DNA of 64,000 nucleotides, taken from an uncultured Bacteroidales bacterium. Its GTDB lineage: Bacteria > Bacteroidota > Bacteroidia > Bacteroidales > Muribaculaceae. A program made the position numbers and the translations under genes. The notes beneath the pieces were generated by a model. That model saw only the letters and a program-made list of their open reading frames with translations. It made no database searches and was not told the origin of the DNA. Below are positions 14,647 through 33,630 of this stretch, in pieces. Each line of letters opens with the position of its first letter. Within the stretch, counting starts at the first letter, position 1. Location of the stretch: assembly GCA_902781045.1 (NCBI GenBank), contig CACZHT010000005.1, positions 19,085-83,084 on the forward strand, written 5' to 3'.

Positions 14647-15960
14647 ATGAAAGAAATCTTACTTAAAAAAATTGCAGACCATCAGATTGTGGCTGGCGTT
14701 GTCGGTCTGGGTTATGTTGGTCTGCCCTTGGCCGTAGAGAAGGCTAAGGCGGGTTTTCGCACCATCGGCTTCGATGTGCAGCAAGAGAAAGTTGACTTAG
14801 TTAATTCGGGGCACAACTACATTGGTGATGTCGTTGACAGTGACCTCAAACAGCTGGTCGAAAAGGGTATGCTCCGTGCTACCACTGACTTTAGCGAGAT
14901 TTCCAATGTCGACTTCGTAGCCATTTGTGTGCCAACACCCCTTGATGCGCACCAGCAGCCTGACATCAGCTATGTTGAGTCTTCGGCTCGGTCTATTGCT
15001 AAGTATTTGCACCGTGGCATGATGGTCGTTCTTGAGTCGACGACTTATCCTGGCACTACTGAGGAATTGATTAAACCAATTCTTGAGACTTCTGGTCTTA
15101 AGTGTGGAGAGGATTTCTACTTGGGTTTCTCGCCCGAACGTGTCGACCCAGGAAACGCTCAGTTCAAGACCAAAAATACACCCAAGGTGGTGGGCGGTCT
15201 CGGTGCGGATGCGAGCGAGGTGATATCAGCGATGTACGAAGCGGTACTTCAGAGTGATGTGTTCCGTGCTTCGTCGCCCGCAGTAGCCGAGATGACTAAG
15301 ATTCTTGAAAACACTTATCGAAACATCAACATTGGACTCATCAACGAGCTGGCCATTTTGTGCAACCGCATGAACATTAACCTGTGGGAGGTCATTGAGG
15401 CTGCCAAAACTAAACCATTCGGTTTCACTCCATTCTATCCCGGTCCAGGTCTGGGAGGCCACTGTATTCCCCTTGATCCATACTACTTGAGCTGGAAGGC
15501 GCGTGAATATGGTTTCCACACATCGATGATTGAGGCTTCGATGATGGTCAACGATCGGATGCCTGAGTATTGTGTGGCACGTACAGCTGATATACTCAAC
15601 CGCCGATTCCAGAAATCGCTCAGCGGGAGTCGTGTGCTTGTGCTGGGTGTGGCCTACAAGCAGGACATCGACGACTATCGTGAGTCTCCGGCAATCCGCG
15701 TCATCGAGCGACTGAAGATGAAAGGAGCCGAAGTGGTCTTCTACGATCCTTTCATACCCAAGTTCCGTGATCATGGGAAGAACTATGTGGGCGAACCGGC
15801 TCTGACTGCCGAGTTGATTGAGAGTGCCGACATCGTTGTAATCACTGCATCGCACAGCACAATCGACTATGACTTTGTTCAGAGTCACGCACGTGCAATC
15901 TTTGACACCAAGAACGTCACTAAGGACGTTAAAGACAAGAGCAATATTGAGGTTCTTTAA
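14647..15960 (+). CDS. wbpA: UDP-N-acetylglucosamine 6-dehydrogenase (WbpA/WbpO-like)
   Basis: GLGYVGLPLA, ICVPTP, LESTTYPGTT, FSPERVDPGN, GPGLGGHCIPLDP and GVAYKQDIDDYRESPA. Confidence 0.88.
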   Translation: MKEILLKKIADHQIVAGVVGLGYVGLPLAVEKAKAGFRTIGFDVQQEKVDLVNSGHNYIGDVVDSDLKQLVEKGMLRATTDFSEISNVDFVAICVPTPLDAHQQPDISYVESSARSIAKYLHRGMMVVLESTTYPGTTEELIKPILETSGLKCGEDFYLGFSPERVDPGNAQFKTKNTPKVVGGLGADASEVISAMYEAVLQSDVFRASSPAVAEMTKILENTYRNINIGLINELAILCNRMNINLWEVIEAAKTKPFGFTPFYPGPGLGGHCIPLDPYYLSWKAREYGFHTSMIEASMMVNDRMPEYCVARTADILNRRFQKSLSGSRVLVLGVAYKQDIDDYRESPAIRVIERLKMKGAEVVFYDPFIPKFRDHGKNYVGEPALTAELIESADIVVITASHSTIDYDFVQSHARAIFDTKNVTKDVKDKSNIEVL

Positions 15961-19524: not shown

Positions 19525-19755
19525 ATGGAATTAGAAAAATTTATTGAGAATTTTGCTGAACAGTTCGATGAGACAGATGCAAGTGAGATCACTGCGTCGA
19601 CTAACTATCATGACCTTGAAGAGTGGTCATCGCTTGTCGCTTTGTCGGTTATAGCAATGGTTGATGAAGAGTACGATGTGACACTGAAGGGTGATGATAT
19701 CCGCAATAGCAAAACAGTAGAGGACCTGTTTAACCTTGTGTCTTCGAGATTGTAG
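19525..19755 (+). CDS. Acyl carrier protein
   Basis: 76-aa acidic protein with EEWSSL (phosphopantetheine serine) and TVEDLFNLV. Confidence 0.88.
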   Translation: MELEKFIENFAEQFDETDASEITASTNYHDLEEWSSLVALSVIAMVDEEYDVTLKGDDIRNSKTVEDLFNLVSSRL

Positions 19756-19762
19756 TAAAAGA

Positions 19763-20521
19763 ATGGAAGGACTGAATCCATTTTCTCTGTCAGGAAAGAG
19801 TATATTGATTACTGGTGCGTCTTCTGGCATTGGTAGGCAGATTGCTCTCTCGTGTGCAGAAATGGAGGCTTCACTATATGTCTCGGGTAGAAATGTCAAC
19901 CGTCTTCAAGACACTTTAGACTCATTATCTACCCATTCTGGATGCCATCATAAGCTTCTGGTTGCTGATTTGACTCATTCTGATGAAGTAAATAATCTAG
20001 TTGCTGCTGTTGAACCGTTGGATGGAGCTGTGTTGTGCTCTGGAATAGGCTTGACGCTTCCTGTCAAGTTTGCTAGCCAGGATAAGTTTAAAGAAGTTTT
20101 TGAGACTAATTTCTTCTCACAAGTTGAATTAGTTAGGCTGCTCTATAAAGCGAAGAAATTAAAAGCAAGTGCTTCCGTGGTGTTTCTTGATTCTATTGGA
20201 GGTACTCACGATATCAGTGCTGGTGCCATTGTTTATGGAACGTCGAAAGCTGCTCTGTTGTCTGCAACAAAGTACTGTGCGTTAGAATTCTCTCATCGGC
20301 TGATACGTGTCAACTGCATTTGCCCTGGAATGGTTGAGACACCTTTAATTCACAGGGGCACAGTGACAGAAGAACAATTGCATGCCGATATGATGCGGTA
20401 CCCTTTAAAACGATACGGTCGTCCTGAGGATATTGCTTATATGGCTGTTTATCTTTTAAGTGATGCTGCGTCCTGGGTGACAGGACAAGATTTTGTAATT
20501 GACGGAGGCATTTCATTATAA
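19763..20521 (+). CDS. FabG-like short-chain dehydrogenase/reductase
   Basis: ITGASSGIG, YGTSK (YxxxK), IRVNCICPGMVETP, TGQDFVIDGG. Confidence 0.88.
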   Translation: MEGLNPFSLSGKSILITGASSGIGRQIALSCAEMEASLYVSGRNVNRLQDTLDSLSTHSGCHHKLLVADLTHSDEVNNLVAAVEPLDGAVLCSGIGLTLPVKFASQDKFKEVFETNFFSQVELVRLLYKAKKLKASASVVFLDSIGGTHDISAGAIVYGTSKAALLSATKYCALEFSHRLIRVNCICPGMVETPLIHRGTVTEEQLHADMMRYPLKRYGRPEDIAYMAVYLLSDAASWVTGQDFVIDGGISL

Positions 20522-20530
20522 GGTTTTTTT

Positions 20531-21589
20531 ATGGCGTATCTAACATTCAAAGGAGTTGGCGTAACGGCAATGTCTGCCGCTGTGCCTCACCATGTAATAA
20601 ACAATTACGAATACACTGAGTTTTTCCCGGCCGAGGAGGTCAAGCAAGTTGTAGACAAAATCGGTATATATGAACGCCGATTTGCCGATCCAGATACCTG
20701 CTCGTCTGACTTGTGCTTTGCCGCTGCTGAAAAACTGTTGGAAGACAATCAGGTTGATCGCAGTGAGATTGACCTGTTAGTTTTTATTTCTCAGACTCCT
20801 GATTATCGCATGCCTGCGACTTCAATCTTGCTTCAAGACCGACTTGGCCTGGAGAAGACTTGCATGGCTTTTGATATCAATCTGGGTTGTGCTGCTTTCA
20901 GCTACGGCTTATCTGTTGTTTATGGCCTGATGCAAACAGGTGGTATCCGTAAGGCATTACTACTCGACGGCGAAACGCGTTCAAAAGTATATTCGCCTAA
21001 AGACAGGCGTACTGCTTTTCTGTTTGGTGACGGAGGAGTGGCAGCACTGATTGAGTGTGACCCGAAGTTTGGTGAGAGTCATTTCTCTATCCATTCTGAT
21101 GGCTCTTTGGCCGATCTGATTATGATAAAGGGTGGAGGGTATAGATATCCTAGTTCAGCGGAAACACTGAAGGAGCGCGTTGTCGACGAATATGGAAACA
21201 GACGCAATGACGAACAAGGAACCATGAAAGGTGGCGATGTGTTTAGTTTTGTCCTGTCTCACATTCCTAAGGACATCAAGCGAACATTGGCTCAAGCTAA
21301 TGTAGATGTAGAGCAGCTGGACTATGTCATTTTCCATCAGGCTAATGACTTTATGAACAATCATATAGCAAAGAAATTGAAATTGCCTGCTGAGAAGGTC
21401 CCGGCAACTATAGCAAAATATGGGAACACATCATCTGTCTCGGTCCCTCTCACCATTGTGAGTGAGCTGAAAGGAAAAATGGCAGGGAACAAGACATTGC
21501 TTCTCAGCGCATTTGGGGTGGGGATGAGTTGGTCAACGGCAATCGTTCCTTTTGTTGATTGTAAATTGAGTGAAATTGTTGAGGTTTAG
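20531..21589 (+). CDS. FabH-like ketoacyl-ACP synthase III
   Basis: Catalytic triad motifs NLGC, FHQAN and YGNTSS, plus FGDGG and FGVGMSW. Confidence 0.9.
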   Translation: MAYLTFKGVGVTAMSAAVPHHVINNYEYTEFFPAEEVKQVVDKIGIYERRFADPDTCSSDLCFAAAEKLLEDNQVDRSEIDLLVFISQTPDYRMPATSILLQDRLGLEKTCMAFDINLGCAAFSYGLSVVYGLMQTGGIRKALLLDGETRSKVYSPKDRRTAFLFGDGGVAALIECDPKFGESHFSIHSDGSLADLIMIKGGGYRYPSSAETLKERVVDEYGNRRNDEQGTMKGGDVFSFVLSHIPKDIKRTLAQANVDVEQLDYVIFHQANDFMNNHIAKKLKLPAEKVPATIAKYGNTSSVSVPLTIVSELKGKMAGNKTLLLSAFGVGMSWSTAIVPFVDCKLSEIVEV

Positions 21590-21607
21590 CTATCTACAAC
21601 GACTGTA

Positions 21608-22612
21608 ATGGCAATAAAAAGTGCAATTAGCAAAGCATTATTTGTTCTGAGGGACAGATATGTCAATGTTCCTATGGCTGCGGCTTCTATCAAGAAGTCT
21701 GGTGGGAGTCAATGGATGTCTAATAAGGTGAGGTTGTTTTGCGACTTTATGTATAGTTATTTAAGATATGGCAGTAATGTCGAGAACTACCTTACATTTG
21801 AATTCTATCGAAAAGACCACAAAGCGAGGAACGAATATCTGACTTTCAAGAGAAGTAAGTCCCTTAAAAGAATGAGTAAGCTGGCTGAACCTGTTTTTCT
21901 GGATAAGGCCGCTTTTAATCGAGAGTTTAAAAATTTCATTCATCGCAAATGGCTTGATTCCAGAACGGTTGAGGCCGGAGCCATTGAATCATTTATCGAT
22001 GAATTGGGGGCTGTCATTGTCAAGCCATTAGATTCGTGCTTTGGGAGGGGAATTGAAAAGATTGAGGCCGAAAACAAATCACCTTTTATTCACAATGTGC
22101 GCAATGGTGATAACTATATTGTTGAAGAGCTTCTTGTGAATGATGAGGCAATTCGGCAGTTAAATCCCTCTTCCTTAAATACAATCAGGATTGTTACATG
22201 TCTGGATAAGAATGACGGAGTGCACATTGTTGAGACGTTGATACGTATTGGCTCGACAGATGCATGCATTGACAATGCGATGGGGGGAGGCATTGCCTGC
22301 GCCATAGACTTACAAACCGGAGTGATTCGTTCTGATGGTATTGATTTGCGAGGGAACACATTCACGCATCATCCTCGATCAGGAATTAAATTAAAAGGTT
22401 ACCAAATTCCGCGTTGGGATGAGGTTGTCGCTCTGGTGAAAGAGTTAGCCTTAGTGAACAAAAATGCCCGATTGGTTGGATGGGATATTGCTGTAACACC
22501 CAGCTACCTTGAGGTGATTGAAGGCAATATTCCTCCAGGTGAGAATATTACTCAGGCGTTTAAGGGGAGAGGAATTTATAATGAATTAAAAGAACTGATG
22601 GGGATTGCATAG
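21608..22612 (+). CDS. Sugar-transfer-associated ATP-grasp ligase 1
   Basis: IVKPLDSCFGRGI, VEE, SLNTIRIVT, RIG..DNAMGGG, VGWDIAV, IEGN. Confidence 0.8.
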   Translation: MAIKSAISKALFVLRDRYVNVPMAAASIKKSGGSQWMSNKVRLFCDFMYSYLRYGSNVENYLTFEFYRKDHKARNEYLTFKRSKSLKRMSKLAEPVFLDKAAFNREFKNFIHRKWLDSRTVEAGAIESFIDELGAVIVKPLDSCFGRGIEKIEAENKSPFIHNVRNGDNYIVEELLVNDEAIRQLNPSSLNTIRIVTCLDKNDGVHIVETLIRIGSTDACIDNAMGGGIACAIDLQTGVIRSDGIDLRGNTFTHHPRSGIKLKGYQIPRWDEVVALVKELALVNKNARLVGWDIAVTPSYLEVIEGNIPPGENITQAFKGRGIYNELKELMGIA

Positions 22613-22645
22613 CTGTTGTCTAGACACGTGATAAGTTGGCGAGGT

Positions 22646-23230
22646 ATGATTCACCAGATTGCTAATTCATTGTTTAATTCCAACACTTGGATTATTGAAT
22701 TAGAAGACACTCTATGGCTGGTTGATTGTGGGGATGTCGAAACGGTGATTCCACTTTTGAAAAACAAATCTCTTTCGGGGATTCTATTGACACATGCTCA
22801 TTTTGACCACATCTATGGGTTGAATACCCTTTTTCGGATTTGCTCGAACGCATTGCTCTATACCAATGTCTACGGCAAAATTGCATTGACTGACTCGAAG
22901 AAAAACCTGTCATTCTATCATGAGACGCCTTATGTATTTGATTTCCCCGAAAGGGTGAGAATAATTGATGATGGCGATACGATAGAGTTGAACGAGGACT
23001 ATCAGGCTGTTGCTGTTGCAACTCCAGGGCATAACAATAGCTGCCTATCTTATGTGCTGGATGATTGCTTGTTTACGGGTGATTCATATATACCAGGATT
23101 GAAGGTGGTTACAAGTCTGCCTGGAGGCAATAAGGTGAATGCCAACGAGTCCTTGGAAAAGATTATGAATCTGGCAAAAGGACGCATCATTTATCCTGGT
23201 CACGGTGCCTCGCAAGAAAAGACGATGTAA
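22646..23230 (+). CDS. MBL-fold metallo-hydrolase
   Basis: LVDCG, THAHFDH, TPGH, FTGD, YPGHG. Confidence 0.85.
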   Translation: MIHQIANSLFNSNTWIIELEDTLWLVDCGDVETVIPLLKNKSLSGILLTHAHFDHIYGLNTLFRICSNALLYTNVYGKIALTDSKKNLSFYHETPYVFDFPERVRIIDDGDTIELNEDYQAVAVATPGHNNSCLSYVLDDCLFTGDSYIPGLKVVTSLPGGNKVNANESLEKIMNLAKGRIIYPGHGASQEKTM

Positions 23231-23252
23231 TCTCAGATGTTTTGTTTGCCCG

Positions 23253-24173
23253 ATGAATAGAGAAAAGAAAATTTATCAATGGACTTTAGGAACTCTTAAG
23301 AAAATCTTTGGAGTTCCAAAGAATGACGGACTGAGTAGAGCCAATATCATAAAGTATATTAGGCTGAAATATGGACCATATCTATATAAAAAGAAATATG
23401 GAACAGCCGAGATTATTGCGATTATGAAGGATTTCGGGATGAAATCAGGCAGTAATGTTTTCATACATTCTTCATGGAACGAATTTTATAACTATACGGG
23501 TTCTGAGCAGGAGCTGATTGAAGCCATTCTGGGGGTTATTGGCCCAACGGGAACTTTGGCAATGCCGGCCTATCCTTTGCGGCGTAAAGGAAGAATCTTT
23601 AACTTGAAGAAATCTGTTACCAAAGGAGGACTTTTGGCTGAAGAGTTCCGAAAATATCCTGGAGTGAAAAGGAGTATTAATGACAGGCACTCGGTCTGTG
23701 CATTAGGACCAATGGCCGATTTTCTATTAAACGAGCATCACTTGGGCGATAATTGTTGGGATGAAAAATCTCCTTATTACAAGTTATCGCAGATTGATTG
23801 TATTGTTTTCACACTCGGCTTGAGCAAATATTTTTTCGGAACAATGGTGCATTGCGTCGAGGGGGTGCTTTGGAAAGACTATCCCTATTTTAGAGATATG
23901 TTTTCTGAGTCGAAAATCGAACATCAATACATCGACTATGATGGGCAGACAAAGTCTTATTACTGCTATGATGGCATAAAGAGGACGTTGCCTGGTTTCT
24001 TTAAGGAGAGGAAGTTTCTGAGAAAATACATCAAGTATCAACACTCATCAGTAAGTAATTTGGGAATCACTGCATTTCGTGCAAAACAAGTGATTCCAAT
24101 GATGATTGAAAATGGTCGTAAAGGTGTGATTCTTTATTCGATGCCTAGTCCGAGAGGTTATCATTTTGAATGA
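23253..24173 (+). CDS. AAC(3)-family N-acyltransferase-like protein
   Basis: VFIHSS, GPTGTLAMPAY, GVKRS...HSVCALG, SPYYKL and TMVHCVE match the aminoglycoside 3-N-acetyltransferase fold motifs. Confidence 0.7.
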   Translation: MNREKKIYQWTLGTLKKIFGVPKNDGLSRANIIKYIRLKYGPYLYKKKYGTAEIIAIMKDFGMKSGSNVFIHSSWNEFYNYTGSEQELIEAILGVIGPTGTLAMPAYPLRRKGRIFNLKKSVTKGGLLAEEFRKYPGVKRSINDRHSVCALGPMADFLLNEHHLGDNCWDEKSPYYKLSQIDCIVFTLGLSKYFFGTMVHCVEGVLWKDYPYFRDMFSESKIEHQYIDYDGQTKSYYCYDGIKRTLPGFFKERKFLRKYIKYQHSSVSNLGITAFRAKQVIPMMIENGRKGVILYSMPSPRGYHFE

Positions 24174-24208: not shown

Positions 24209-25378
24209 ATGAGCTTTCGAGTGCACAGACGGCATCCCTGGGAGGATGACATGGAATTGGAAAACTATACCGAGCGAGGCGTTGACAAGGGTGCGCACAT
24301 GGCAGACAGTCATGTGACAAATGCTGACATGGTGCGTATCTTTGAGGCCACCAAGCATTTGGGACTTGATGAAGCTCTTGCATGGCTTGACGCACATAAG
24401 GGTGAGTTTGACACAAGTACGGTTATCGTTGACACTGACGAAGGCGATGATTTGGCTCAGTTTCGTGACGTTAAACCGCAGGTCATTGTTGAGAAGAGGG
24501 CTTTGAATGAGATTCGCCATCTGAACACTTTGCTCAATCGGGCTAATGAGGTTTTGGAAGATGGAGGCTATCTGTGGTGTCACGCACACACTGCTGTGCT
24601 AAAGCGGCAGTTGATCATGAACCGCCACATCTGGGGGGTGCGCCATGTGATTTATGCGTGTCACTTCATCTGGCACCGAGTCCTGCCCAAAATGAAATGG
24701 AGTCGTGGCATCTACATGGCTATCACCAAGGGGAAGAATCGCACATATCATCGTGTGGAGGTTCTGGGGCGTATGTATCGAGCTGGATATGAGGTGGTCG
24801 ACGAGGAATTCCGCAAGGGTGAGTTTTTCGTCCTGGCACGCAAGGTCAAGGAACCTATCTGGAATGACATTCCTTCTGGCTCACCGCTCATCTACCTCAA
24901 GCGTGTGGGCAAGGGAGGCAAGCTGATACGTGTCTACAAGTTCCGCACGATGTATCCTTACAGCGAATATCTGCAGCCATATATCTATGAGCACAACCAC
25001 TTGCAACAGGGTGGCAAGTTTGCTGATGACTACCGTGTTACCCCTTGGGGCAAGTGGATGCGCAAGTTATGGATTGACGAGTTGCCGATGATACTGAACA
25101 TGTTTAAGGGAGAGCTGAAGCTTGTCGGTGTCCGTCCCCTTTCGCGCCACTATTTCAGCCTATACTCACCAGAGATGCAAGAGTTGCGCATTAAGGTGAG
25201 GCCAGGTCTGTTGCCGCCATTCTATTATGACAAACACACTCCCAAGACCATCGAAGAGGTGCAGGCTAGTGAACGGCACTACATTGAGCAATGTCTCAAA
25301 CATCCGCTCATCACCGATATCAAATACTTTTTTGGCACAATAGGTAACATCATTTTTAGGGGAAAAACCAGTAAATAA
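24209..25378 (+). CDS. Initiating phosphoglycosyl transferase (Bac_transf domain) with a long N-terminal extension
   Basis: RVGKGGKLIRVYKFRTM, DYRVTPWGKWMRKLWIDELP, LVGVRP, RPGL. Confidence 0.78.
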   Translation: MSFRVHRRHPWEDDMELENYTERGVDKGAHMADSHVTNADMVRIFEATKHLGLDEALAWLDAHKGEFDTSTVIVDTDEGDDLAQFRDVKPQVIVEKRALNEIRHLNTLLNRANEVLEDGGYLWCHAHTAVLKRQLIMNRHIWGVRHVIYACHFIWHRVLPKMKWSRGIYMAITKGKNRTYHRVEVLGRMYRAGYEVVDEEFRKGEFFVLARKVKEPIWNDIPSGSPLIYLKRVGKGGKLIRVYKFRTMYPYSEYLQPYIYEHNHLQQGGKFADDYRVTPWGKWMRKLWIDELPMILNMFKGELKLVGVRPLSRHYFSLYSPEMQELRIKVRPGLLPPFYYDKHTPKTIEEVQASERHYIEQCLKHPLITDIKYFFGTIGNIIFRGKTSK

Positions 25379-25391
25379 TTGGAATGAAACG

Positions 25392-26420
25392 ATGAAGATA
25401 TTAATTGATATAAATCATCCCGCGCATGTTCATTATTTCAAGAATTTTATAAAAATAATGGAAGCGCATGGACACAAATTCTTTGTAATCAACAGAGATA
25501 GTCCAATGATTAATCAGTTGCTTGATTACTATGGCATTGAGCATACAATCCGTAATAAGCGCCCTGAAAAGAAAGGAACGATAGCATCATTGATGAATAT
25601 TCTTCGTATGATTGGCTGGGTGGCGAAGAAGTCTTTCTCTTTTCATCCTGACATTTATATGGGGTTCGCTTCTTCTGCTTGTGCTGTTACATCGTTTTTG
25701 TTCAGGAAACCCTGTGTGCTTATTGATGACACGGAGCATAATGTAATGAATCAGAAGCTATATCTGCCATTCTGTTCTAAAGTGCTGACTCCTTTTTATT
25801 TCCAAAAACAGCTTGGGGACGGAACGAAGCAAGTACGCTTTAATGCTTATGTAGAACAATTGTATCTGCACAGCAAATATTATAAGAAGAATCCAGCTGT
25901 TCTTGATGAACTGGGTGTTAAGCCGGGTGAATATGTGATTGTGCGCTATATTGCGTATGATGCGCATCACGATTTGGTAGCACATCCTATCTCTGATGAT
26001 GTGAAGAAGAAAATTGTCAGTGAAATAGCTAAGCACTATCGGGTGTTTGTATCGCTAGAAAAGAACGTAAATGATCATTTTTATGATGATTATTTGTTGA
26101 AAATATCGCCTGAAAAAATGCATGACTTGGAGGCTTATGCCAAATTTATGGTGGCTGAAGGGGCAACAATGGCATCAGAATCATTTATTCATGGCGTCCC
26201 CTATCTGTACTTGAATCCTTTGCATTGCGGGTATATTGACTACCAATGTGAGCACTATCCTGACAGGGCTTTTCAAACAACTGACAAGGAACAAGCATTG
26301 CAGATTGTGCAGCGACTTCTTCTCACCGATTGTGACTCTGATCACGAAAAAAAGAACATTGAGAGTCAGACGATAGATCCTACTGCCTACTTGATAAGTG
26401 TAATTGAGCCCCCCCTGTAG
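25392..26420 (+). CDS. DUF354-family protein, probable GT-B-fold transferase
   Basis: MKILIDINHPAHVHYFKN, DDTEH, EGATMASES. Confidence 0.8.
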   Translation: MKILIDINHPAHVHYFKNFIKIMEAHGHKFFVINRDSPMINQLLDYYGIEHTIRNKRPEKKGTIASLMNILRMIGWVAKKSFSFHPDIYMGFASSACAVTSFLFRKPCVLIDDTEHNVMNQKLYLPFCSKVLTPFYFQKQLGDGTKQVRFNAYVEQLYLHSKYYKKNPAVLDELGVKPGEYVIVRYIAYDAHHDLVAHPISDDVKKKIVSEIAKHYRVFVSLEKNVNDHFYDDYLLKISPEKMHDLEAYAKFMVAEGATMASESFIHGVPYLYLNPLHCGYIDYQCEHYPDRAFQTTDKEQALQIVQRLLLTDCDSDHEKKNIESQTIDPTAYLISVIEPPL

Positions 26421-26474
26421 ACTGTGTTACGGGACACATTTGGGCTGCATCATCCAAGGCTTACGCCGTGTATG

Positions 26475-26591
26475 TCATTCTTTCTCGCTAAGAATGGCGA
26501 TGAGCTTTCTCGTCAGCCTCTCGTTTGCGTCTTTGAGGTATTCCATTTCCTTAGCTGTTACTATATCTGCCGGATTATTCGTGGCCTGCAA
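26475..26591 (-). pseudogene. Short antisense coiled-coil-like ORF or gene remnant
   Basis: TTG-start 38-aa frame LQATNNPADIVTAKEMEYLKDANERLTRKLIAILSEKE*. Protein-like composition only. Confidence 0.2.
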
Positions 26592-26665
26592 ACTTTTTGA
26601 AATTTAGCTATATTACTTAAAGAATATGAGCTAATTATTTAAATGACTCATAAAGGTATTGTAAA

Positions 26666-27871
26666 ATGAAAATTGGACTTTTAAAAGAGACCAAAACACC
26701 TGTAGATAATCGTGTGGCTTTGTCACCCGAACAGGTTGCCAGACTTAATAAGGAATTTCCTGAATCTGAGATTGTAGTTCAGAGTAGCGATATAAGAGCG
26801 TTTACTGACGATGAATATCGCAAAGCAGGAGTAAGGGTTGTTGATGATATTTCTGACTGTGATGTGCTGTTTGGCATCAAAGAAGCTAGTATTGATACTC
26901 TGCTTTCTGGTAAGCACTATGTTTTCTTCGGTCACATTGCTAAGATGCAGGAATATAATCGTCCGTTGCTACAGGCGTTTTTACATAAAGGAATTACATT
27001 TACTGACTACGAGTATCTAGTCGATGATAGAGGTGTACGTGTCTGTGCCTTTGGATGGTGGGCTGGTGTGGTTGGTGTCTATTATACACTGCGAGGATAT
27101 GGCTTAAAAACCGATAGTTTCGAATTGCCGCAGCCTGATGTCAGATTTACACTACAGCAGTTGATTGATACTCTGAAAAATCTCGAATTACCGGCGGTAA
27201 AAATGCTGGTTACAGGGGCTGGCCGCGTGTCACAGGGTGCTCAGTATGTCCTGGACCAAATAGGTGCGAAACGTGTCTGTGAAGAAGATTATTTGAACGA
27301 ATGCAAAGTTGACACTTTGACTTACTGCGTGGCTGATGTGGACAGACTGGTACGTAGAGTTGATGGCGGTGTTTTCTCGTTTAAACATTTTACAGACTAT
27401 CCTAGTGCATACGAGAGTGATTTCATGCGATGGGCAAAACAGACTGATGTGCTAATCTCTGCTCACTTCTGGTCTAATGATGCACCCGTTTATCTAAGTC
27501 AGGATGACCTCAGAAGCCCAGATAATCGCATCCGTATGATAGGGGATGTTACATGCGATATTATGGGTAGCATCAAATCTACTATTAGGTCAGCAACGCA
27601 TCAAGATCCGTATTATGATTATAACCCAATAACAGAAGAGGAAGAGGCATTATTTGCCAACAAGAACAACATCACTGTCGAAGCTGTTGATACATGTCCC
27701 AATGCCCTACCTATGGATGCCAGCAAATATTTTGGTGAGATGCTCATTCCGCATGTGTTAGAGCCATTGCTGAAAGGCGAAGAATCAAAGGTAATTACCG
27801 GCGCTACTATCATAAAAGACGGTAAACTGACTGATAAATTCTTATATTTGTCTGATTTTGCGCAAGGATAA
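26666..27871 (+). CDS. Saccharopine dehydrogenase / lysine-ketoglutarate reductase-like NAD(P) oxidoreductase (AlaDH/PNT superfamily)
   Basis: MKIGLLKETK..DNRVAL.P, FGIKE, FFGHIAKMQEYNRPLL, DYE, FGWWAGVVG, VTGAGRVSQGA, IGDVTCD, AVDTCPNALP. Confidence 0.8.
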   Translation: MKIGLLKETKTPVDNRVALSPEQVARLNKEFPESEIVVQSSDIRAFTDDEYRKAGVRVVDDISDCDVLFGIKEASIDTLLSGKHYVFFGHIAKMQEYNRPLLQAFLHKGITFTDYEYLVDDRGVRVCAFGWWAGVVGVYYTLRGYGLKTDSFELPQPDVRFTLQQLIDTLKNLELPAVKMLVTGAGRVSQGAQYVLDQIGAKRVCEEDYLNECKVDTLTYCVADVDRLVRRVDGGVFSFKHFTDYPSAYESDFMRWAKQTDVLISAHFWSNDAPVYLSQDDLRSPDNRIRMIGDVTCDIMGSIKSTIRSATHQDPYYDYNPITEEEEALFANKNNITVEAVDTCPNALPMDASKYFGEMLIPHVLEPLLKGEESKVITGATIIKDGKLTDKFLYLSDFAQG

Positions 27872-27881
27872 AAAGGCAATA

Positions 27882-29348
27882 ATGGCGGAAAAAAAGCTGA
27901 AACAGAAAGCAGTGTCCAGTATGATTTGGATGGCTGTCCAAAGATACTCGAAGATGCTAATTCAATTCGTCTCGGGTATCATTTTGGCTCGATTGCTCAC
28001 TCCGTATGACTATGGTTGCATTGGTTTACTTGCCGTTTTTGTCGTATTGGCAGAGTCATTCATTGACGGTGGCTTCGGTTCGGCTTTGATTCAAAAGAAA
28101 CGACCAACCCAAGAGGATTATTCAACTATATTCTTTTGGAATCTTCTGATGTCGATGATTCTTTATGTCATTTTGTTCATTTCTGCTCCAACAATAGCAC
28201 GTTTCTACAAAATACCATTATTAAGCGATGTCTTGCGGGTTTATGGTATAGTCCTATTTGTCTATGCGTTTAATGTTGTCCAGCAAAACCAGCTGCAAAA
28301 ACAATTGAACTTCAAACTCTTGTCCATCGTGGCTCTGGTGTCTTCAGTTATTTCGTTAGCAGTAACCATCATCATGGCATATAATGGGTTTGGTGTTTGG
28401 GCTTTAGTTACACAATATCTACTTATTGCAATAATTCCTGCTTTTGCCTTTTGGTTTTTGGTAAAATGGAGACCAAGACTTGTCTTCTCCTGGAGCTCAT
28501 TTAAGGAGTTGTTTAGCTTTGGTTTCTATATGTTTCTGACAAATTTAATCAATCAGTTCGGAAGTCAATTGCAAGGGCTTTTGATTGGTCGATTCTACAA
28601 CGCGGCAACCTTGGGTTATTATTCTAAGGCTCAAAGAACAGAAACCTTAGCTTCACAGAGCATTTCATCTATCATGACTCAGGTGACATTCCCATTGTAT
28701 GCTGAGTTGCAAAACGACAGGCAGGCTATGGCCATGGTAATCAAAAGGATTACCATGACGCTAGCTTATTTCTCATTTCCCATTCTATTTATATTTCTAT
28801 TGCTTGCTAAACCGATATTTATTATACTTTATTCTGATAGGTGGTTGGCTAGTGTGCCATATTTCCAAGCGCTGTGCATTGCTGGGCTTGCTGGATGTTT
28901 GCAGGCGGTGAATTTGCAGTCCATTTCTGCAATTGGAAAAAGCAAAACAATGTTTGAATGGACCATCGTAAAACGCATTGTAGGTATTGGCGCTGTTGTC
29001 GTTGGGCTATTGTGTTATGGCATGAAAGGGCTGCTTGCTGGTGTGGTTTTTAACTATTGGTTCTCTTATTTTATAAATATCAGACTAGTGTCGAAGCATA
29101 TTGGCTATAAGTGGTATCACCAAATCAGAGATCTCTTTTCAGTGGGGGCTGTGTCTGTCACAATAGCCGGTATATGCTTTTTGTTGGGTGAATGGCTCAA
29201 TCTTGGTATTTACCTTAATGGGTTGATACAGTTGGTTGTCTATCTTTGCTTGTATCTTGGATGGTCGCTCTTTTTCAAGCCTGAAGCCTATACATATTTT
29301 ATTAGTGTCATACCAAATAGATTTAAATCAAGATCTAAATCAAGATAA
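27882..29348 (+). CDS. wzx: Wzx flippase (PST family)
   Basis: GIILARLLTPYDYG, DGGFGSALIQKK, LGYYSKA and many TM helices. Confidence 0.9.
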   Translation: MAEKKLKQKAVSSMIWMAVQRYSKMLIQFVSGIILARLLTPYDYGCIGLLAVFVVLAESFIDGGFGSALIQKKRPTQEDYSTIFFWNLLMSMILYVILFISAPTIARFYKIPLLSDVLRVYGIVLFVYAFNVVQQNQLQKQLNFKLLSIVALVSSVISLAVTIIMAYNGFGVWALVTQYLLIAIIPAFAFWFLVKWRPRLVFSWSSFKELFSFGFYMFLTNLINQFGSQLQGLLIGRFYNAATLGYYSKAQRTETLASQSISSIMTQVTFPLYAELQNDRQAMAMVIKRITMTLAYFSFPILFIFLLLAKPIFIILYSDRWLASVPYFQALCIAGLAGCLQAVNLQSISAIGKSKTMFEWTIVKRIVGIGAVVVGLLCYGMKGLLAGVVFNYWFSYFINIRLVSKHIGYKWYHQIRDLFSVGAVSVTIAGICFLLGEWLNLGIYLNGLIQLVVYLCLYLGWSLFFKPEAYTYFISVIPNRFKSRSKSR

Positions 29349-29384
29349 GCCCCTAATTATCGTTTTGCCATTTGATGGAATTAT

Positions 29385-30182
29385 ATGATACAAATTATTC
29401 TGAATGCTGATGATTTTGGAAAAAGTGTGGCTCGAAACAAGGCGATTGATGATTCTCTCAAGCAGGGTTTGATTCAATCAACAGGCCTAATTGTAACGGG
29501 CAAGCACCTTGAAGAAGCAGTGGATTTCATGATGAGTGGGGATTATGCTGGGAAGACTCATCTTCATTTTAATTTATCGGCAAATTTATTGCACGAAGAT
29601 TCTGATGATGCCCCACTTACCGAGGGCATGAAGAGGGATTCTTTTTTTTGTGAAGATGGGAAGTTCATTAGATATAGAGGATTGCCACGTAACATTACTG
29701 ATATCAGAAAGTGGAAAATCGTCTATAACGAATTAGTAGCTCAGTACAACAAATACATTGAAGTTACAAGAGGACAAGGCAATAATACTCATGTTGATTT
29801 TCATTTGTGGTACAACTTGACATTTCCTGTCGCACTTGCACTAAATGCTTTCACTCGTAAATATGGCATAAAATCGGTGCGATATATTGGGCTCCACCAG
29901 AAATCCCTTAGATATAGGCTATTCCCGATGATAAGTTGGAATCCAAAGGTGAAATCATACCCATCCACTAACATCGATTATTTCCTTTCGTGCCATAAGT
30001 CAATAAGGCAATCACAAATAATAGAACTGTACTGCCATCCCAATTATAAAGATGGAATACTTCTTGATGACAGTGTATCGTATCTTAAACACGAAAGACA
30101 GCCTATGCAAGTGCATGTTAGTATGCTAAAGAAAATAGGCGACATTACTTTTTTGTCATGGGAGGATATAAAAAATGAGTAA
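29385..30182 (+). CDS. YdjC/ChbG-family carbohydrate deacetylase
   Basis: LNADDFG, HLHFNL, HVDFH, LYCHP. Confidence 0.78.
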   Translation: MIQIILNADDFGKSVARNKAIDDSLKQGLIQSTGLIVTGKHLEEAVDFMMSGDYAGKTHLHFNLSANLLHEDSDDAPLTEGMKRDSFFCEDGKFIRYRGLPRNITDIRKWKIVYNELVAQYNKYIEVTRGQGNNTHVDFHLWYNLTFPVALALNAFTRKYGIKSVRYIGLHQKSLRYRLFPMISWNPKVKSYPSTNIDYFLSCHKSIRQSQIIELYCHPNYKDGILLDDSVSYLKHERQPMQVHVSMLKKIGDITFLSWEDIKNE

Positions 30183-31323
30183 TATTCGTTTGTTTTTCTC
30201 TGGGGATTTTTGCTCGAAACCATCAACTTCAAAAATCTCTGTTTCGGACGAATTGAAAGAGCTGATTCAATCCTGTGATTGGAAGGTTGTGAATTTCGAG
30301 GTGCCTTTGAAGCCTAAAAATTCTTCTAATTCTCAAGGACGATTTTTTCAAAACGACGATGCCCCTTCTTTTCTGCTTAATCTAGGTTTCAACCTATTCT
30401 CGTTCGCCAACAATCATGCTTTTGATTATGGTATAGAAGGATGGAAGAAAACGGTAGATAGTCTCTCAGGAAAAATTTTTGGTTCGGGCAGATATGATGA
30501 CGCTTATCAAGTTAAAATTGTAGAAAAGAATGGTCTGAAGATTGGATTTCTTGCCTTGACCTACGCTGCCCGATCCGGGGTTTTTGATATTTTCACAGAT
30601 AAGGATTCTTATGCTTGTGCATGGATAAATGACCTGAAAGTCAATCACATTATCATTGATGCAAAGAAAAAAGTTGATTATCTTGTAATTCTTCCGCATG
30701 ACGGCATTGAGTATATCGATGTTCCTATGCCAGAAACAATTTCTCGTTACCGAGATTTTATTGAATACGGTGCTGATGCTGTGATAGGAACTCATCCGCA
30801 TTGCCCACAGGGATGGGAAGTGTATAAGGGGAAACCAATCTTTTACAGCCTTGGCAATTTTTTGTTCAACAGCAAGGATAATTATGATTATAGGGCATGG
30901 AATCGTCCTCATTGGTATGAAGGTTTGTGCGTTATTGTTAGCTTTGGTGTCGATGGCATAACTTATCAAGTTATTAATACAAGGAATGAGGGAAATGTTG
31001 GCATATCTGTTGAGCATTCTACCGATAGGGATGAACACAACAGACGGTTGTGCAGCTACCTTACGGACAAAGAGGCATATTCAAGGGTATTGAATAAGGA
31101 ATGTAGCCGTTTGATGAAAAATCAGGAGATGCCAATTATTAATCAGTCTTTTCATAGTGTCTCGTTAAAATCATCGGTTATATTGCTGTTTAAGACGTTA
31201 GTGAGGGTAGTCTTGAAGCGAAATAATGATACCGCGCTTGTCAATCTTGTCAAGAATGATTCCAGAAGAAGTTTGTTGATTCGTGGTCTTCAAGAGACAA
31301 ATGATGCTCAAGGTAAAAAATAG
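30175..31323 (+). CDS. CapA/PGA_cap-family metallophosphatase-like protein
   Basis: SGDF, VNFE, ANNHAFDYG, PHDGIEY, GTHPH, YSLGNF. Confidence 0.85.
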   Translation: MSNIRLFFSGDFCSKPSTSKISVSDELKELIQSCDWKVVNFEVPLKPKNSSNSQGRFFQNDDAPSFLLNLGFNLFSFANNHAFDYGIEGWKKTVDSLSGKIFGSGRYDDAYQVKIVEKNGLKIGFLALTYAARSGVFDIFTDKDSYACAWINDLKVNHIIIDAKKKVDYLVILPHDGIEYIDVPMPETISRYRDFIEYGADAVIGTHPHCPQGWEVYKGKPIFYSLGNFLFNSKDNYDYRAWNRPHWYEGLCVIVSFGVDGITYQVINTRNEGNVGISVEHSTDRDEHNRRLCSYLTDKEAYSRVLNKECSRLMKNQEMPIINQSFHSVSLKSSVILLFKTLVRVVLKRNNDTALVNLVKNDSRRSLLIRGLQETNDAQGKK

Positions 31324-31344
31324 TAGTATTTAAAAAACGATTTA

Positions 31345-32439
31345 ATGAATATTGCAAAAAAAATCCGCAATTTGATGTTTATATGCCATAAAGAAATAGC
31401 ATATAGATATCATGAGAGAAAGGTCGGAAGAAATCTGAAAAAGCTTGTCGATCGCAAGAGATTGACCAGAGACCAAATAAATGAGATTCAAGAGTTCTAT
31501 AAGGGAATCATAGGCAAAAAGATATCTCTGAAATCGCATGAGTATTTTTACTCGCGAACGGGTATCTACTCTAAAGAGTATGTCCCTATCAGCCTCTACC
31601 ATGTTGAGTTGCAACCCAAGGCTAACATGGTGCCCTATCGCAATGCTTATGCCGATAAAAACATGGTGGACATTCTGTTGCCCAATGTAAAACATCCACG
31701 AACCATTGTGAAGCGTATGAATGGGTATTACTACTATGATGGGCAACCGATATCAGAGGATGACGTGATAGAGAAATGCAGCAATCTGAAGAACGCAATC
31801 ATTAAACCTGTTCTGGAATACAGCGGAAAGGGAGTTGAAGGCCTTGAGGTTACAAATGGCATCACAAATATTGATGGACTTAATCTGAAAGAGCTATTCA
31901 ACAAATATGGCAAGAACTTCCAGATACAAGAACGATTGCGTCAGCATGAGAAAATGAATGCACTCAATCCGACCTCAGTCAATACAATCAGAATATTGAC
32001 TTATCGTTCTGGAATGGAAATTCTGCTGATTTATTCGGTTGTGCGCATTGGCAGAAAAGGGCAGGTTATTGACAACCAGTGCGCGGGCGGAATTAGTACA
32101 ATCGTCTCCGAAGATGGAAAGCTGGGGAAATATGCCTTTGGTGGATATGCCGAAGATGGAATTGAGGTTACCGACTCAGGAGTTGTGCTAGATGGTTTTG
32201 AAATACCATCGTACGACAAAGCTGTTGAAACAGTTAAGAGACTTCACTATCAGTTGCCCTTCTTCAACTTGATAGGCTGGGATGTGGCTATCGATGAGGC
32301 CGGAGATCCAGTCATTATTGAGTGGAATGCCAATCCTGGCTTGAGCCAATCAGCATTTGGACCTGGGTTTGGTAAATATACAGAGAGGGTGTTGCGAGAA
32401 TTGTGGCCCAGAGAGAATACTGCGCGATTGCGCTATTGA
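31345..32439 (+). CDS. Sugar-transfer-associated ATP-grasp ligase 2
   Basis: YADKN, IIKP...SGKGV, IQERL, SVNTIRILT, RIG..IDNQCAGG, IGWDVAI, IEWN. Confidence 0.82.
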   Translation: MNIAKKIRNLMFICHKEIAYRYHERKVGRNLKKLVDRKRLTRDQINEIQEFYKGIIGKKISLKSHEYFYSRTGIYSKEYVPISLYHVELQPKANMVPYRNAYADKNMVDILLPNVKHPRTIVKRMNGYYYYDGQPISEDDVIEKCSNLKNAIIKPVLEYSGKGVEGLEVTNGITNIDGLNLKELFNKYGKNFQIQERLRQHEKMNALNPTSVNTIRILTYRSGMEILLIYSVVRIGRKGQVIDNQCAGGISTIVSEDGKLGKYAFGGYAEDGIEVTDSGVVLDGFEIPSYDKAVETVKRLHYQLPFFNLIGWDVAIDEAGDPVIIEWNANPGLSQSAFGPGFGKYTERVLRELWPRENTARLRY

Positions 32440-32652
32440 CTGAATTGCAGTAGCTGATTTGGATAGTGGCTTGCGTTTCCTCTATGGCACTATGTGGGTT
32501 TTCACAGATTGTCTGAGTTGGATTGTGCATGCGCACATTGCATCAGCCCATCGATTGATTTCTGTTTTTTATAACTGATATATTGGCAGTGCTAGGCGTC
32601 TTTCATCCTTTTGAAATCCTGGTGCTATAAAAGAACACAGATAATAATTTTA

Positions 32653-33630
32653 ATGAAAAACTTTGCACTCATTGGTGCTGCGGGATATATCGCACCGCGG
32701 CACATCAAGGCCATCGCCGACACAGGAAACAACCTGATGGTGGCATACGACCGCTTTGACAGTGTGGGACGACTGGACAGCTCGTTCCCCGAAGCCTCGT
32801 TCTTCACCGAGCAGGAGCAGTTTGACCGGTTCTGCTCGCGACAGATGCTAACCGACAACCCGTTGCACTGGCTCAGCATTTGCACTCCCAACTACACGCA
32901 TGACGCATTCATACGCTATGGACTGCGGCTGGGCACGGATGTCATCTGCGAGAAACCGCTTGTACTGAACCCTTATAACATCGATAATCTCTTGGAGGTG
33001 GAGCGAGCCACCGGTCACAAGGCTTACACCATCTTGCAGTTGCGTCTGCACGACTCGATTGTGGCTCTAAAGGAGAAAATCGACAACGGCCCCAAGGACA
33101 AAATCTACGATGTCGACCTGACTTATATCACCAGCCGAGGCAAATGGTACTATGCTTCATGGAAGGGCGACATACACAAGAGTGGCGGTGTGGCGACCAA
33201 CATCGGCGTGCACTTCTATGACATGCTTCAGTGGGTGTTCGGTCCTGTGAAGCAGAATATAGTGCATGTGATGAGCTTTGACCGCGTGGCGGGATACTTG
33301 GAGCTGGAAAAGGCGCATGTGCGTTATTTCCTGAGCATCAACGCCGAGTGTCTGCCACCCAATGCTGTGCAGGGCGAGAAGCGGACCTACCGCACGCTTA
33401 ACATCGATGGCGACGAATTTGAGTTCAGTGTGGGATTCACCGAGCTGCATACTAAGAGTTACCAGAAGATTCTGGCCGGAGAGGGATTCCGCATCAGTGA
33501 GGCAAGGCCGTGCATTGAGATTGTGAGCGACATCCGTCACGCCACACCCATCGGACTCAAGGGCGACTACCACCCGTTGGCACGGCTCCCGCTCTCTACT
33601 CACCCCTTCGGCTGGGACGAGAAGCGTTGA
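32653..33630 (+). CDS. wbpB: UDP-GlcNAcA 3-dehydrogenase (WbpB-like, Gfo/Idh/MocA family)
   Basis: NFALIGAAGYIAPRH, ICTPNYTH, VICEKPL, SWKGD..KSGGVATNIGVHFYDML, GFTELHT.SY. Confidence 0.9.
   Translation: MKNFALIGAAGYIAPRHIKAIADTGNNLMVAYDRFDSVGRLDSSFPEASFFTEQEQFDRFCSRQMLTDNPLHWLSICTPNYTHDAFIRYGLRLGTDVICEKPLVLNPYNIDNLLEVERATGHKAYTILQLRLHDSIVALKEKIDNGPKDKIYDVDLTYITSRGKWYYASWKGDIHKSGGVATNIGVHFYDMLQWVFGPVKQNIVHVMSFDRVAGYLELEKAHVRYFLSINAECLPPNAVQGEKRTYRTLNIDGDEFEFSVGFTELHTKSYQKILAGEGFRISEARPCIEIVSDIRHATPIGLKGDYHPLARLPLSTHPFGWDEKR

What the first reader, a model, noticed from the sequence alone, without database searches (positions are those of the whole stretch)
26666..27871. Saccharopine-dehydrogenase-like enzyme inside the capsule operon may supply an opine-type amino acid
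Seen: a complete SDH/LKR-like ORF co-oriented between DUF354 and wzx, with the same AT-rich composition as its neighbours. Established: this superfamily reductively condenses an amino acid amine with a 2-oxo acid, as in saccharopine and N5-carboxyethyl-ornithine synthesis. N-epsilon-(1-carboxyethyl)lysine amides of uronic acids occur in some enterobacterial O-antigens. Inference: the enzyme makes saccharopine or a carboxyethyl-lysine-like compound that one ATP-grasp ligase attaches to the uronic acid carboxyl.
Basis: inference. Interest (0 to 1): 0.6.

Follow-up and report, generated by a model that had tools for sequence, protein, structure and literature searches.

The report
Opine-type reductase in capsule decoration cassette
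A rumen or gut Prevotella-like bacterium carries a relative of the lysine-degrading enzyme lysine-ketoglutarate reductase as the first gene of a mobile five-gene capsule cassette, where it most likely makes an unusual carboxyalkyl-amino-acid side group that a partner ligase joins to the sugar chain.

Summary
Window 26666-27871 (+) is an intact 401-aa enzyme of the lysine-2-oxoglutarate reductase / saccharopine dehydrogenase type. Its best solved relative is the human AASS LOR domain (E 1e-37). The structure model has pLDDT 96 and TM 0.85 to that domain. All nine mapped SDH active-site residues are invariant in 39 relatives.

It is not housekeeping lysine metabolism. Relatives occur in only 5 of 301 genomes of the same family, and close relatives always lie in glycan loci.

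It is the first gene of a conserved 5.8-kb cassette: LKR-like, Wzx, YdjC, PGA_cap, ATPgrasp_ST (26666-32439). This cassette is shared among rumen Bacteroidales.

In 33 species-level loci, 31 have an ATP-grasp ligase within about 10 kb. The other two are cut by contig ends. Four ligase families appear as partners. Natural fusions join the enzyme to an L-amino-acid-ligase-like ATP-grasp, to a double-GNAT protein, and to a true opine dehydrogenase.

An opine-type product handed to an ATP-grasp ligase is the best reading. The substrates and the attachment point (uronic carboxyl or deacetylated amino sugar) remain untested.

The scan noted the same gene type in five other genomes. One was followed up with the same reading.

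The parts
26666..27871 (+). LKR/SDH-like (AlaDH/PNT-fold) reductase, 401 aa. First gene of the cassette.
   Evidence: The residues matching yeast SDH K13, R18, K77, E78, H96, K99, E122, R131 and D319 are K10, R16, K72, E73, H90, K93, E116, R125 and D342. All are invariant in 39 of 39 glycan-locus relatives.
27882..29348 (+). Wzx flippase. The ORF is open from 27858, but the likely start is ATG 27882, 10 nt after the LKR-like stop.
   Evidence: Polysacc_synt_3 at E 2.5e-92. Start codon. It is 46-75% identical to the Wzx that follows the LKR-like gene in other species.
29385..30182 (+). YdjC-family de-N-acetylase. An optional member of the cassette.
   Evidence: Pfam YdjC at E 9.8e-24. Solved relative: chitooligosaccharide deacetylase 7VI8, E 3e-9. 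It is 54-66% identical in 9 other loci.
30175..31323 (+). PGA_cap (CapA/MslH-like, calcineurin-fold) protein.
   Evidence: Pfam PGA_cap at E 3.1e-46. Its only solved relative is MslH (8GQ9), which epimerises a C-terminal residue (PMC10406935). It is 49-69% identical in most other cassettes, about 30% in three.
31345..32439 (+). ATPgrasp_ST ligase. The cassette-borne, likely partner ligase.
   Evidence: Pfam PF14397 at E 5.5e-36. It is 42-73% identical in most other cassettes, lower (28-34%) in six loci, and nucleotide similarity between loci ends at about 32420.
26421..26665 (.). 245-nt gap at the upstream edge of the cassette. Not conserved in other loci.
   Evidence: No terminator-like site. 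No blastn match in other loci, and similarity begins at 26662-26666.
21608..22612 (+). Second ATPgrasp_ST ligase. Specific to this locus, only 25-32% identical to those elsewhere.
   Evidence: The genome holds only these two PF14397 genes.
14647..15960 (+). UDP-sugar 6-dehydrogenase, the source of a uronic acid in this locus.
   Evidence: All three UDPG_MGDP_dh domains are present. With the hexapeptide transferase (16159-16710), DegT (16774-17922) and the GFO_IDH_MocA protein (32611-33630), it resembles a WbpA/D/E/B-type pathway to a diacetamido-uronic acid (inference).

Best explanation
The gene encodes an active reductive aminase of the lysine-2-oxoglutarate reductase / saccharopine dehydrogenase type, probably using NAD(H). 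It has been recruited from amino-acid metabolism into surface-glycan decoration.

It is the first gene of a horizontally mobile cassette (LKR-like, Wzx, YdjC, PGA_cap, ATPgrasp_ST) inserted into this capsule locus.

Most likely it condenses a primary amine with a 2-oxo acid and reduces the imine. The best guess for the amine is the epsilon-amine of free L-lysine. The best guess for the oxo acid is 2-oxoglutarate, with pyruvate as the alternative. The product would be an N-carboxyalkyl amino acid of the saccharopine or carboxyethyl-lysine type.

The cassette's ATP-grasp ligase would then join this residue by an amide bond to the lipid-linked repeat unit. The acceptor could be a uronic-acid carboxyl or an amino sugar freed by YdjC. 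PGA_cap may epimerise the terminal residue. The cassette's own Wzx would then flip the decorated unit.

Shown: family, fold, intact active site, accessory distribution, cassette structure, ligase co-occurrence and fusions. Inferred: substrates, order of steps and attachment point.
For: Family and active site:
- The best solved relatives are human LOR and yeast SDH.
- The model has pLDDT 96.2 and TM 0.84-0.86 to 8E8U.
- Nine SDH active-site positions are invariant in 39 of 39 relatives.

Not housekeeping:
- It is single-copy in the genome.
- Relatives are found in 5 of 301 genomes of the same family and in none of 17 other genomes of the same genus.
- The only Sacchrp_dh_NADP protein in the genome looks like carboxynorspermidine synthase, so no second saccharopine-pathway step is evident.

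Context:
- All 33 species-level loci plus four metagenomic contexts are glycan loci.
- ATPgrasp_ST lies within 12 kb in 28 of 33 loci, and some ATP-grasp in 31 of 33. The remaining two (L032, L034) are cut by contig ends. L046 carries a TupA-like ATP-grasp.
- The background rate of ATPgrasp_ST is 22 of 301 genomes.

Cassette:
- Wzx, YdjC, PGA_cap and ATPgrasp_ST mostly show 42-75% identity across species (lower in some loci).
- Nucleotide similarity runs exactly from 26662/26666 to about 32420.
- The cassette is flanked by two of the largest gaps of the locus, 245 and 171 nt.

Fusions:
- P0297 is an L-amino-acid-ligase-like ATP-grasp fused to the LKR-like enzyme.
- P0298 is the LKR-like enzyme fused to a double-GNAT protein, seen in two samples.
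- P0299 is an opine dehydrogenase (1BG6-like, PF02317) fused to the LKR-like enzyme, inside a YdjC-Wzx-PGA_cap-ATPgrasp_ST locus.

Precedents:
- A TupA-like ATP-grasp amidates the GlcA carboxyl in the C. jejuni capsule (PMC11800379).
- N-epsilon-(1-carboxyethyl)-lysine amide of GalA occurs in Providencia rustigianii O14 (PMC10609480).
Against: - There is no biochemical or polysaccharide-composition data for any carrier organism.
- The conserved residues are shared by the whole LKR/SDH group, so they do not settle the substrates.
- Of the 16 clade-specific positions, six abut catalytic residues (A74, I91, M94, W131, T343, C344). This hints at a changed specificity.
- Much of the co-occurrence reflects inheritance of one cassette, so the loci are not independent. 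Four different ligase families and three fusions lessen this concern.
- The 245-nt upstream gap could hold a separate promoter. Co-transcription with the upstream genes is not shown.
- Two of the three fusions rest on a single contig each.
Confidence: 0.55

Rival explanations
1. The chemistry is the same but it acts later. An ATP-grasp ligase first attaches lysine or ornithine, or YdjC exposes an amino-sugar amine. The LKR-like enzyme then carboxyalkylates that free amine on the nucleotide- or lipid-linked sugar.
For: YdjC travels with the gene in 9 or more loci. Pocket-adjacent residues are clade-specific. In the Providencia O14 structure the lysine alpha-amine is acylated and the epsilon-amine is alkylated (PMC10609480), which either order of steps would explain.
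Against: D342 and K93 are invariant. From memory of the yeast enzyme, the matching D319 and K99 hold the free alpha-amino-acid end of lysine. The type-B partner is closest to ligases that act on free L-amino acids (3VOT, 4WD3). YdjC is absent from most cassettes.
Confidence: 0.22
2. It is a different amino-acid dehydrogenase reaction. For example, it could reductively aminate a 2-oxo acid with ammonia as AlaDH does, or work oxidatively. In either case it would supply a plain or unusual amino acid to the ligases rather than an opine.
For: It shares the AlaDH/PNT fold, and NCBIfam gives only weak alaDH hits, far below the cut-off. Sources label relatives 'alanine dehydrogenase'.
Against: Sequence and fold are much closer to LOR/SDH than to AlaDH (E 1e-37 against 2e-5; TM 0.85 against 0.65). 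The SDH-specific R125, K93 and D342 are invariant. One relative is fused to a true opine dehydrogenase.
Confidence: 0.1
3. It supports sugar-nucleotide synthesis indirectly. It would balance 2-oxoglutarate/glutamate or NAD(H) for the WbpB/WbpE-like oxidase and aminotransferase pair of the locus.
For: The window has GFO_IDH_MocA and DegT genes. WbpB-type enzymes use 2-oxoglutarate (own knowledge).
Against: Across loci the gene tracks ATP-grasp ligases and Wzx, not GFO_IDH_MocA or DegT. GFO appears in 3 and DegT in about 9 of 37 loci.
Confidence: 0.05
4. It is ordinary lysine catabolism or biosynthesis (the saccharopine pathway) and lies in the capsule locus by chance.
For: The closest characterised enzymes are lysine-pathway enzymes. 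A 52% relative in Chryseobacterium sits in a housekeeping context.
Against: It is found in 5 of 301 genomes of the same family and in no other genome of the genus. It always lies in glycan loci. The glycan-locus forms make one clade. No evident second pathway enzyme is present. It has the low GC of the cassette.
Confidence: 0.03

Closest known systems
Lysine-2-oxoglutarate reductase (LOR/LKR) domain of human AASS (EC 1.5.1.8; PDB 8E8U, 8DDA; PMC9490328)
   Same: Best sequence match (E 1.3e-37) and best fold match (TM 0.84-0.86). Same two-domain AlaDH/PNT architecture, including the C-terminal helix. The Ala-Gly nicotinamide motif (A133-G134) and the GxGxxS Rossmann motif are present.
   Different: Stand-alone 401-aa bacterial protein, about 25% identical. 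It has Ala-Asp where the human enzyme has the NADPH-selecting Ser266-Arg267, so it probably uses NAD(H). It is not fused or linked to the second-step SDH domain. It lies in a capsule cassette rather than a lysine-degradation pathway.
Saccharomyces cerevisiae saccharopine dehydrogenase Lys1 (EC 1.5.1.7; PDB 2Q99, 3UH1)
   Same: The positions matching K13, R18, K77, E78, H96, K99, E122, R131 and D319 are all conserved. It has an NAD-type Asp.
   Different: 23% identity and TM about 0.7. Lys1 is a core lysine-biosynthesis enzyme, whereas this gene is a rare accessory gene.
N5-(carboxyethyl)ornithine synthase of Lactococcus lactis (EC 1.5.1.24)
   Same: From memory: it belongs to the AlaDH/PNT family, condenses ornithine or lysine with pyruvate, and is encoded on a mobile element.
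   Different: It is about 313 aa (from memory) against 401 aa here. Its products are free cytoplasmic amino acids.
C. jejuni HS:2 glucuronamide system (Cj1438 C-terminal TupA-like ATP-grasp amidoligase; PMC11800379)
   Same: A capsule-locus ATP-grasp that forms an amide on a uronic-acid C6 carboxyl with a dedicated, locus-made amine. One relative locus (L046) pairs the LKR-like gene with a TupA-like ATP-grasp.
   Different: There the amine is serinol or ethanolamine phosphate made by an aminotransferase and a phosphatase, with no opine-type reductase. The window's ligases belong to the ATPgrasp_ST family, which has not been characterised.
N-epsilon-[(S)-1-carboxyethyl]-N-alpha-(D-galacturonoyl)-L-lysine in the Providencia rustigianii O14 O-antigen (PMC10609480)
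   Same: A chemical precedent for an opine-type lysine amide on a uronic acid.
   Different: It comes from Enterobacterales. No biosynthetic gene is linked to it in the papers I could search, and no link to this enzyme clade has been shown.

Membership tests
LKR/LOR - saccharopine dehydrogenase (L-lysine-forming), AlaDH/PNT superfamily | Two-domain AlaDH/PNT fold with a Rossmann GxGxxG/S motif | tested here: met
   Pfam PF05222 at E 2.5e-21. Model pLDDT 96.2 with TM 0.84-0.86 to 8E8U. G184, G186 and S189 are conserved.
LKR/LOR - saccharopine dehydrogenase (L-lysine-forming), AlaDH/PNT superfamily | Catalytic Lys/His pair (yeast K77/H96) with supporting E78 and E122 | tested here: met
   K72, H90, E73 and E116 align to them and are invariant in 39 of 39 sequences.
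LKR/LOR - saccharopine dehydrogenase (L-lysine-forming), AlaDH/PNT superfamily | Carboxylate- and amine-binding residues R18, R131, K99 and D319 (roles from memory of the yeast work) | tested here: met
   R16, R125, K93 and D342 are invariant in 39 of 39 sequences.
LKR/LOR - saccharopine dehydrogenase (L-lysine-forming), AlaDH/PNT superfamily | Catalyses lysine + 2-oxoglutarate <-> saccharopine | not testable with these tools
   This needs an enzyme assay. Clade-specific changes next to catalytic residues leave the specificity open.
Saccharopine pathway of lysine catabolism | Linked or fused second enzyme (saccharopine dehydrogenase, glutamate-forming; PF03435), with a core-like distribution | tested here: not met
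   No PF03435 gene lies nearby. The genome's best PF03435 protein resembles carboxynorspermidine synthase. The LKR-like gene occurs in only 5 of 301 genomes of the family.
Octopine/nopaline-type opine dehydrogenases (PF02317) | Octopine_DH helical domain | tested here: not met
   The window protein has no PF02317 hit. A relative (P0299) is fused to such a domain. The two are therefore partners, not the same family.
N5-(carboxyethyl)ornithine synthase subfamily | Sequence membership in the CEOS subfamily and use of pyruvate | not tested
   No CEOS sequence could be obtained. A plasmid tblastn search found none.

The most novel reading that the evidence does not exclude
This LKR-like clade may be a general carboxyalkylating partner of carboxylate-amine ligases. 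In rumen Bacteroidales capsule loci it would build opine-containing side chains on sugars. These chains could be peptide-like and partly D-configured, given the repeated PGA_cap/ATPgrasp_ST pairs. This would be a class of glycan substituent with no known biosynthetic genes. The sister clade in prophages does related chemistry next to an Amidoligase_2/DAM-like/GNAT fusion and ParB_N, possibly as part of DNA-base hypermodification.
Probability: 0.3. Interest if true: 0.8.

Novelty: new variant of a known kind. Interest (0 to 1): 0.6.

Why it matters
Amino-acid and opine-type substituents shape the charge and antigenicity of bacterial surface polysaccharides. In the papers I could search, no gene is linked to the opine-type substituents. 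This enzyme would be a first genetic handle on them, and the cassette gives a compact five-gene unit to test.

The cassette is shared across several rumen and gut Bacteroidales families, together with its own flippase. This suggests a portable way to redecorate capsules.

The same enzyme clade recurs with four ligase families, and a sister clade sits in phage modules. This points to a broader, unrecognised biosynthetic partnership.

Tried and rejected
- **Housekeeping lysine catabolism.** Rejected on distribution and context.
- **Direct comparison with lactococcal CEOS.** No sequence was available. A plasmid tblastn search returned only Persicobacter, Streptomyces and similar saccharopine-dehydrogenase-like genes.
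- **Literature search for a gene behind carboxyethyl-lysine or alanopine substituents, or for LKR/SDH in polysaccharide loci.** Nothing relevant was found in the held library. This is not proof that nothing exists elsewhere.
- **Papers describing yeast SDH residue roles.** They could not be retrieved. Those roles are therefore given from memory, apart from K77/H96, whose role is stated in a title cited in PMC9490328.
- **Sigma-70 promoter scan.** It is uninformative for Bacteroidota.
- **Upstream gap 26421-26665.** It is not conserved in other loci, so no shared promoter could be defined.
- **Sequence search of solved structures with ATPgrasp_ST and with the type-B 335-aa protein.** Nothing was found. 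A fold search then showed the 335-aa protein to be a double-GNAT, NMT/Eis-like protein.
- **Complex prediction.** None was run, because no physical binding is claimed.

Full report
**Observation.** Window 26666-27871 (+) is a complete ATG-initiated ORF of 401 aa.
- It matches Pfam AlaDh_PNT_N at E 2.5e-21.
- Among solved structures it is closest to the human AASS lysine-2-oxoglutarate reductase domain (E 1.3e-37), then to yeast saccharopine dehydrogenase Lys1 (E 2.6e-16). Alanine dehydrogenases are far behind at E 2e-5.
- An AlphaFold2 model built on 56 relatives is very confident, with mean pLDDT 96.2.
- Foldseek ranks human LOR first (TM 0.84-0.86), then yeast SDH (about 0.7), then AlaDH and transhydrogenase dI.
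- The gene lies between DUF354 (25392-26420) and a Wzx flippase and shares their low GC: 0.42 against 0.39 for both neighbours and 0.525 outside the block.
- The wzx gene probably starts at ATG 27882, 10 nt after the stop codon.
- A 245-nt gap without a terminator-like site lies upstream.

**Active site.** The HMMER alignment to yeast SDH maps yeast K13, R18, K77, E78, H96, K99, E122, R131 and D319 onto K10, R16, K72, E73, H90, K93, E116, R125 and D342.
- All nine are invariant in 39 glycan-locus relatives and nearly so in 126 more distant family members.
- The acid-base role of K77/H96 is stated in the title of a paper cited in PMC9490328. The roles of the other residues are from my memory of the yeast work.
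- At the position where human LOR has Ser266-Arg267 for NADPH (PMC9490328), this protein has Ala223-Asp224, as yeast has Asp. This suggests NAD(H) use, though the alignment is weaker there.
- Sixteen positions are fixed in the glycan-locus clade but differ elsewhere. Six of them sit next to catalytic residues (A74, I91, M94, W131, T343, C344). The catalytic core is therefore kept while the pocket may be retuned.

**Not housekeeping.**
- The genome holds one copy and no other AlaDh_PNT_N gene.
- Among 301 genomes sampled from the same GTDB family, 5 have a relative. None of the 17 other genomes of the same genus does.
- The only clear Sacchrp_dh_NADP protein in the genome looks like carboxynorspermidine synthase, so the next step of the saccharopine pathway is not evident.

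**Context elsewhere.** Four metagenomic homologues, together with G137 of the family sample, sit in polysaccharide loci. A scan of species-representative genomes returned 33 loci with 56-76% identity. Most are rumen or gut MAGs of Prevotella, other Bacteroidales, Lentimicrobiaceae, Rikenellaceae and Porphyromonadaceae. I scanned their flanks with phmmer, using seed proteins already annotated by Pfam.
- ATPgrasp_ST lies within 12 kb in 28 of 33 loci.
- Another five loci were checked for other ligases. L051 and L057 have an L-amino-acid-ligase-like ATP-grasp. [quoted passage not shown]
- The two remaining loci, L032 and L034, end at a contig edge 0.3 and 4.4 kb downstream.
- For comparison, ATPgrasp_ST passes the Pfam cut-off in 22 of 301 genomes of the family sample.
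- These loci are related to one another and are not independent observations.

**A cassette.**
- The window's Wzx, YdjC, PGA_cap and second ATPgrasp_ST are mostly 46-75%, 54-66%, 49-69% and 42-73% identical to their counterparts downstream of the LKR-like gene in other species; PGA_cap and ATPgrasp_ST drop to about 30% in some loci.
- The rest of the window locus (Wzy, DUF354, the AAC(3)-like protein and the initiating transferase, with only a weak MBL match in one locus) has no counterpart there. Some loci do carry SDR and KASIII relatives.
- Nucleotide similarity starts at 26662/26666 and ends near 32420.
- The block is bounded by two of the largest intergenic gaps of the locus, 245 and 171 nt.
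- I call this architecture type A: LKR-like, Wzx, optional YdjC, then one or more PGA_cap/ATPgrasp_ST pairs.
- Type B is a sugar-phosphate transferase, an unknown protein, an ATP-grasp, the LKR-like gene, then a 335-aa protein. The ATP-grasp is closest to the L-amino-acid ligases 3VOT and 4WD3. The 335-aa protein folds as a double GNAT of the NMT/Eis type.

**Fusions.** A search for longer proteins found three.
- P0297 (824 aa) is the type-B ATP-grasp fused to the LKR-like enzyme. Its two halves are 57% and 69% identical to the separate proteins.
- P0298 (744 aa) is the LKR-like enzyme fused to the double-GNAT protein. It is seen on contigs from two samples.
- P0299 (790 aa) is an opine dehydrogenase fused to the LKR-like enzyme. 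The opine-dehydrogenase half matches Pfam Octopine_DH at E 8e-31 and carboxyethyl-norvaline dehydrogenase 1BG6 at E 9e-26.
- P0299 lies in this locus: NusG, nucleotidyltransferase-aminotransferase, OCD/mu-crystallin, the fusion, YdjC, Wzx, PGA_cap, two ATPgrasp_ST, LicD, Wzy.
- These fusions tie the enzyme functionally to amino-acid ligation and to opine chemistry.

**Phylogeny.** In a FastTree of 165 family members, the 39 glycan-locus sequences form one clade with support 94.
- Next to it are a Chryseobacterium protein in a housekeeping context and a protein beside a UDP-sugar dehydrogenase.
- The sister group at 44-49% identity lies in prophage-like DNA. That is a separate observation, listed under things noticed in passing.

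**Mechanism.** The best reading is reductive condensation of an amine with a 2-oxo acid to give an N-carboxyalkyl amino acid. An ATP-grasp ligase would then join it to the repeat unit by an amide bond before the cassette's Wzx flips the unit.
- By homology the default substrates are L-lysine and 2-oxoglutarate, giving saccharopine. Pyruvate, giving carboxyethyl-lysine as in the Providencia O14 antigen (PMC10609480), is an alternative.
- The window locus can make a uronic acid. It has a UDP-sugar dehydrogenase plus WbpB/D/E-like genes.
- A TupA-like ATP-grasp is known to amidate a glucuronate carboxyl (PMC11800379).
- Equally, YdjC could free an amino-sugar amine that one of the opine's carboxyls then acylates.
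- PGA_cap's only solved relative is MslH, which epimerises a C-terminal residue (PMC10406935). It may therefore convert the newly added residue to the D form. This is a lead only.
- The substrates, the order of steps and the acceptor are inferred, not shown.

**Earlier notes.** The scan had already flagged LKR-like genes in glycan loci of five other genomes. One of these was followed up with the same reading. I treated these notes as leads. The distribution, cassette, fusion and residue analyses above were done here.

**Verdict.** The enzyme is a dedicated glycan-decoration enzyme of a known fold in a role not described in the papers I could search. Biochemistry is needed to name the product.

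Noticed in passing
L061 5291-9188; L062 5303-9185; L063 436-4341; L016 6600-10599 (L017 is the same arrangement): The sister clade of the LKR-like enzyme (44-49% identical) sits in prophage or phage DNA. The order is DUF488, a 670-aa fusion of Amidoligase_2, DAM-like-phage2 and GNAT-phage-like domains, ParB_N, the LKR-like gene, then terminase or portal genes. L062 also has PAPS_reduct and dUTPase/DCD genes upstream. It looks like a DNA-base hypermodification module that uses a reductive aminase.
   Followed up: partly
window 26475-26603 (- strand): The gap upstream of the cassette holds a 42-aa open frame with a leucine-zipper-like stretch reminiscent of an IS3-type OrfA remnant. It could be a scar of the cassette's insertion. 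This was not tested.
   Followed up: no
L029 5118-6326 and 10001-11209: One rumen Bacteroidetes MAG carries two LKR-like genes in the same locus, one on each side of the wzx gene.
   Followed up: no
L036, L039, L043, L048, L056, L060 (downstream of wzx): PGA_cap and ATPgrasp_ST genes recur as alternating pairs, up to three or four per locus. This suggests stepwise addition of several residues, possibly with epimerisation, to give a peptide-like side chain.
   Followed up: partly
window 24209-25378: The initiating sugar-phosphate transferase has genome-like GC (0.49; GC3 0.59) inside an otherwise low-GC block (0.38-0.45). The locus is therefore a mosaic.
   Followed up: no
window 19736-24173: An SDR, KASIII, ATPgrasp_ST, MBL hydrolase and AAC(3)-like gene run lies upstream. 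SDR/KASIII relatives (35-71% identical) also occur in several other LKR-bearing loci (L030, L039, L041, L045, L053, L054, L055).
   Followed up: no
L065 7261-9974: A nucleotidyltransferase-aminotransferase fusion (605 aa) and an OCD/mu-crystallin-family protein lie directly upstream of the opine-dehydrogenase::LKR-like fusion. This is further amino-acid tailoring in the same glycan locus.
   Followed up: no
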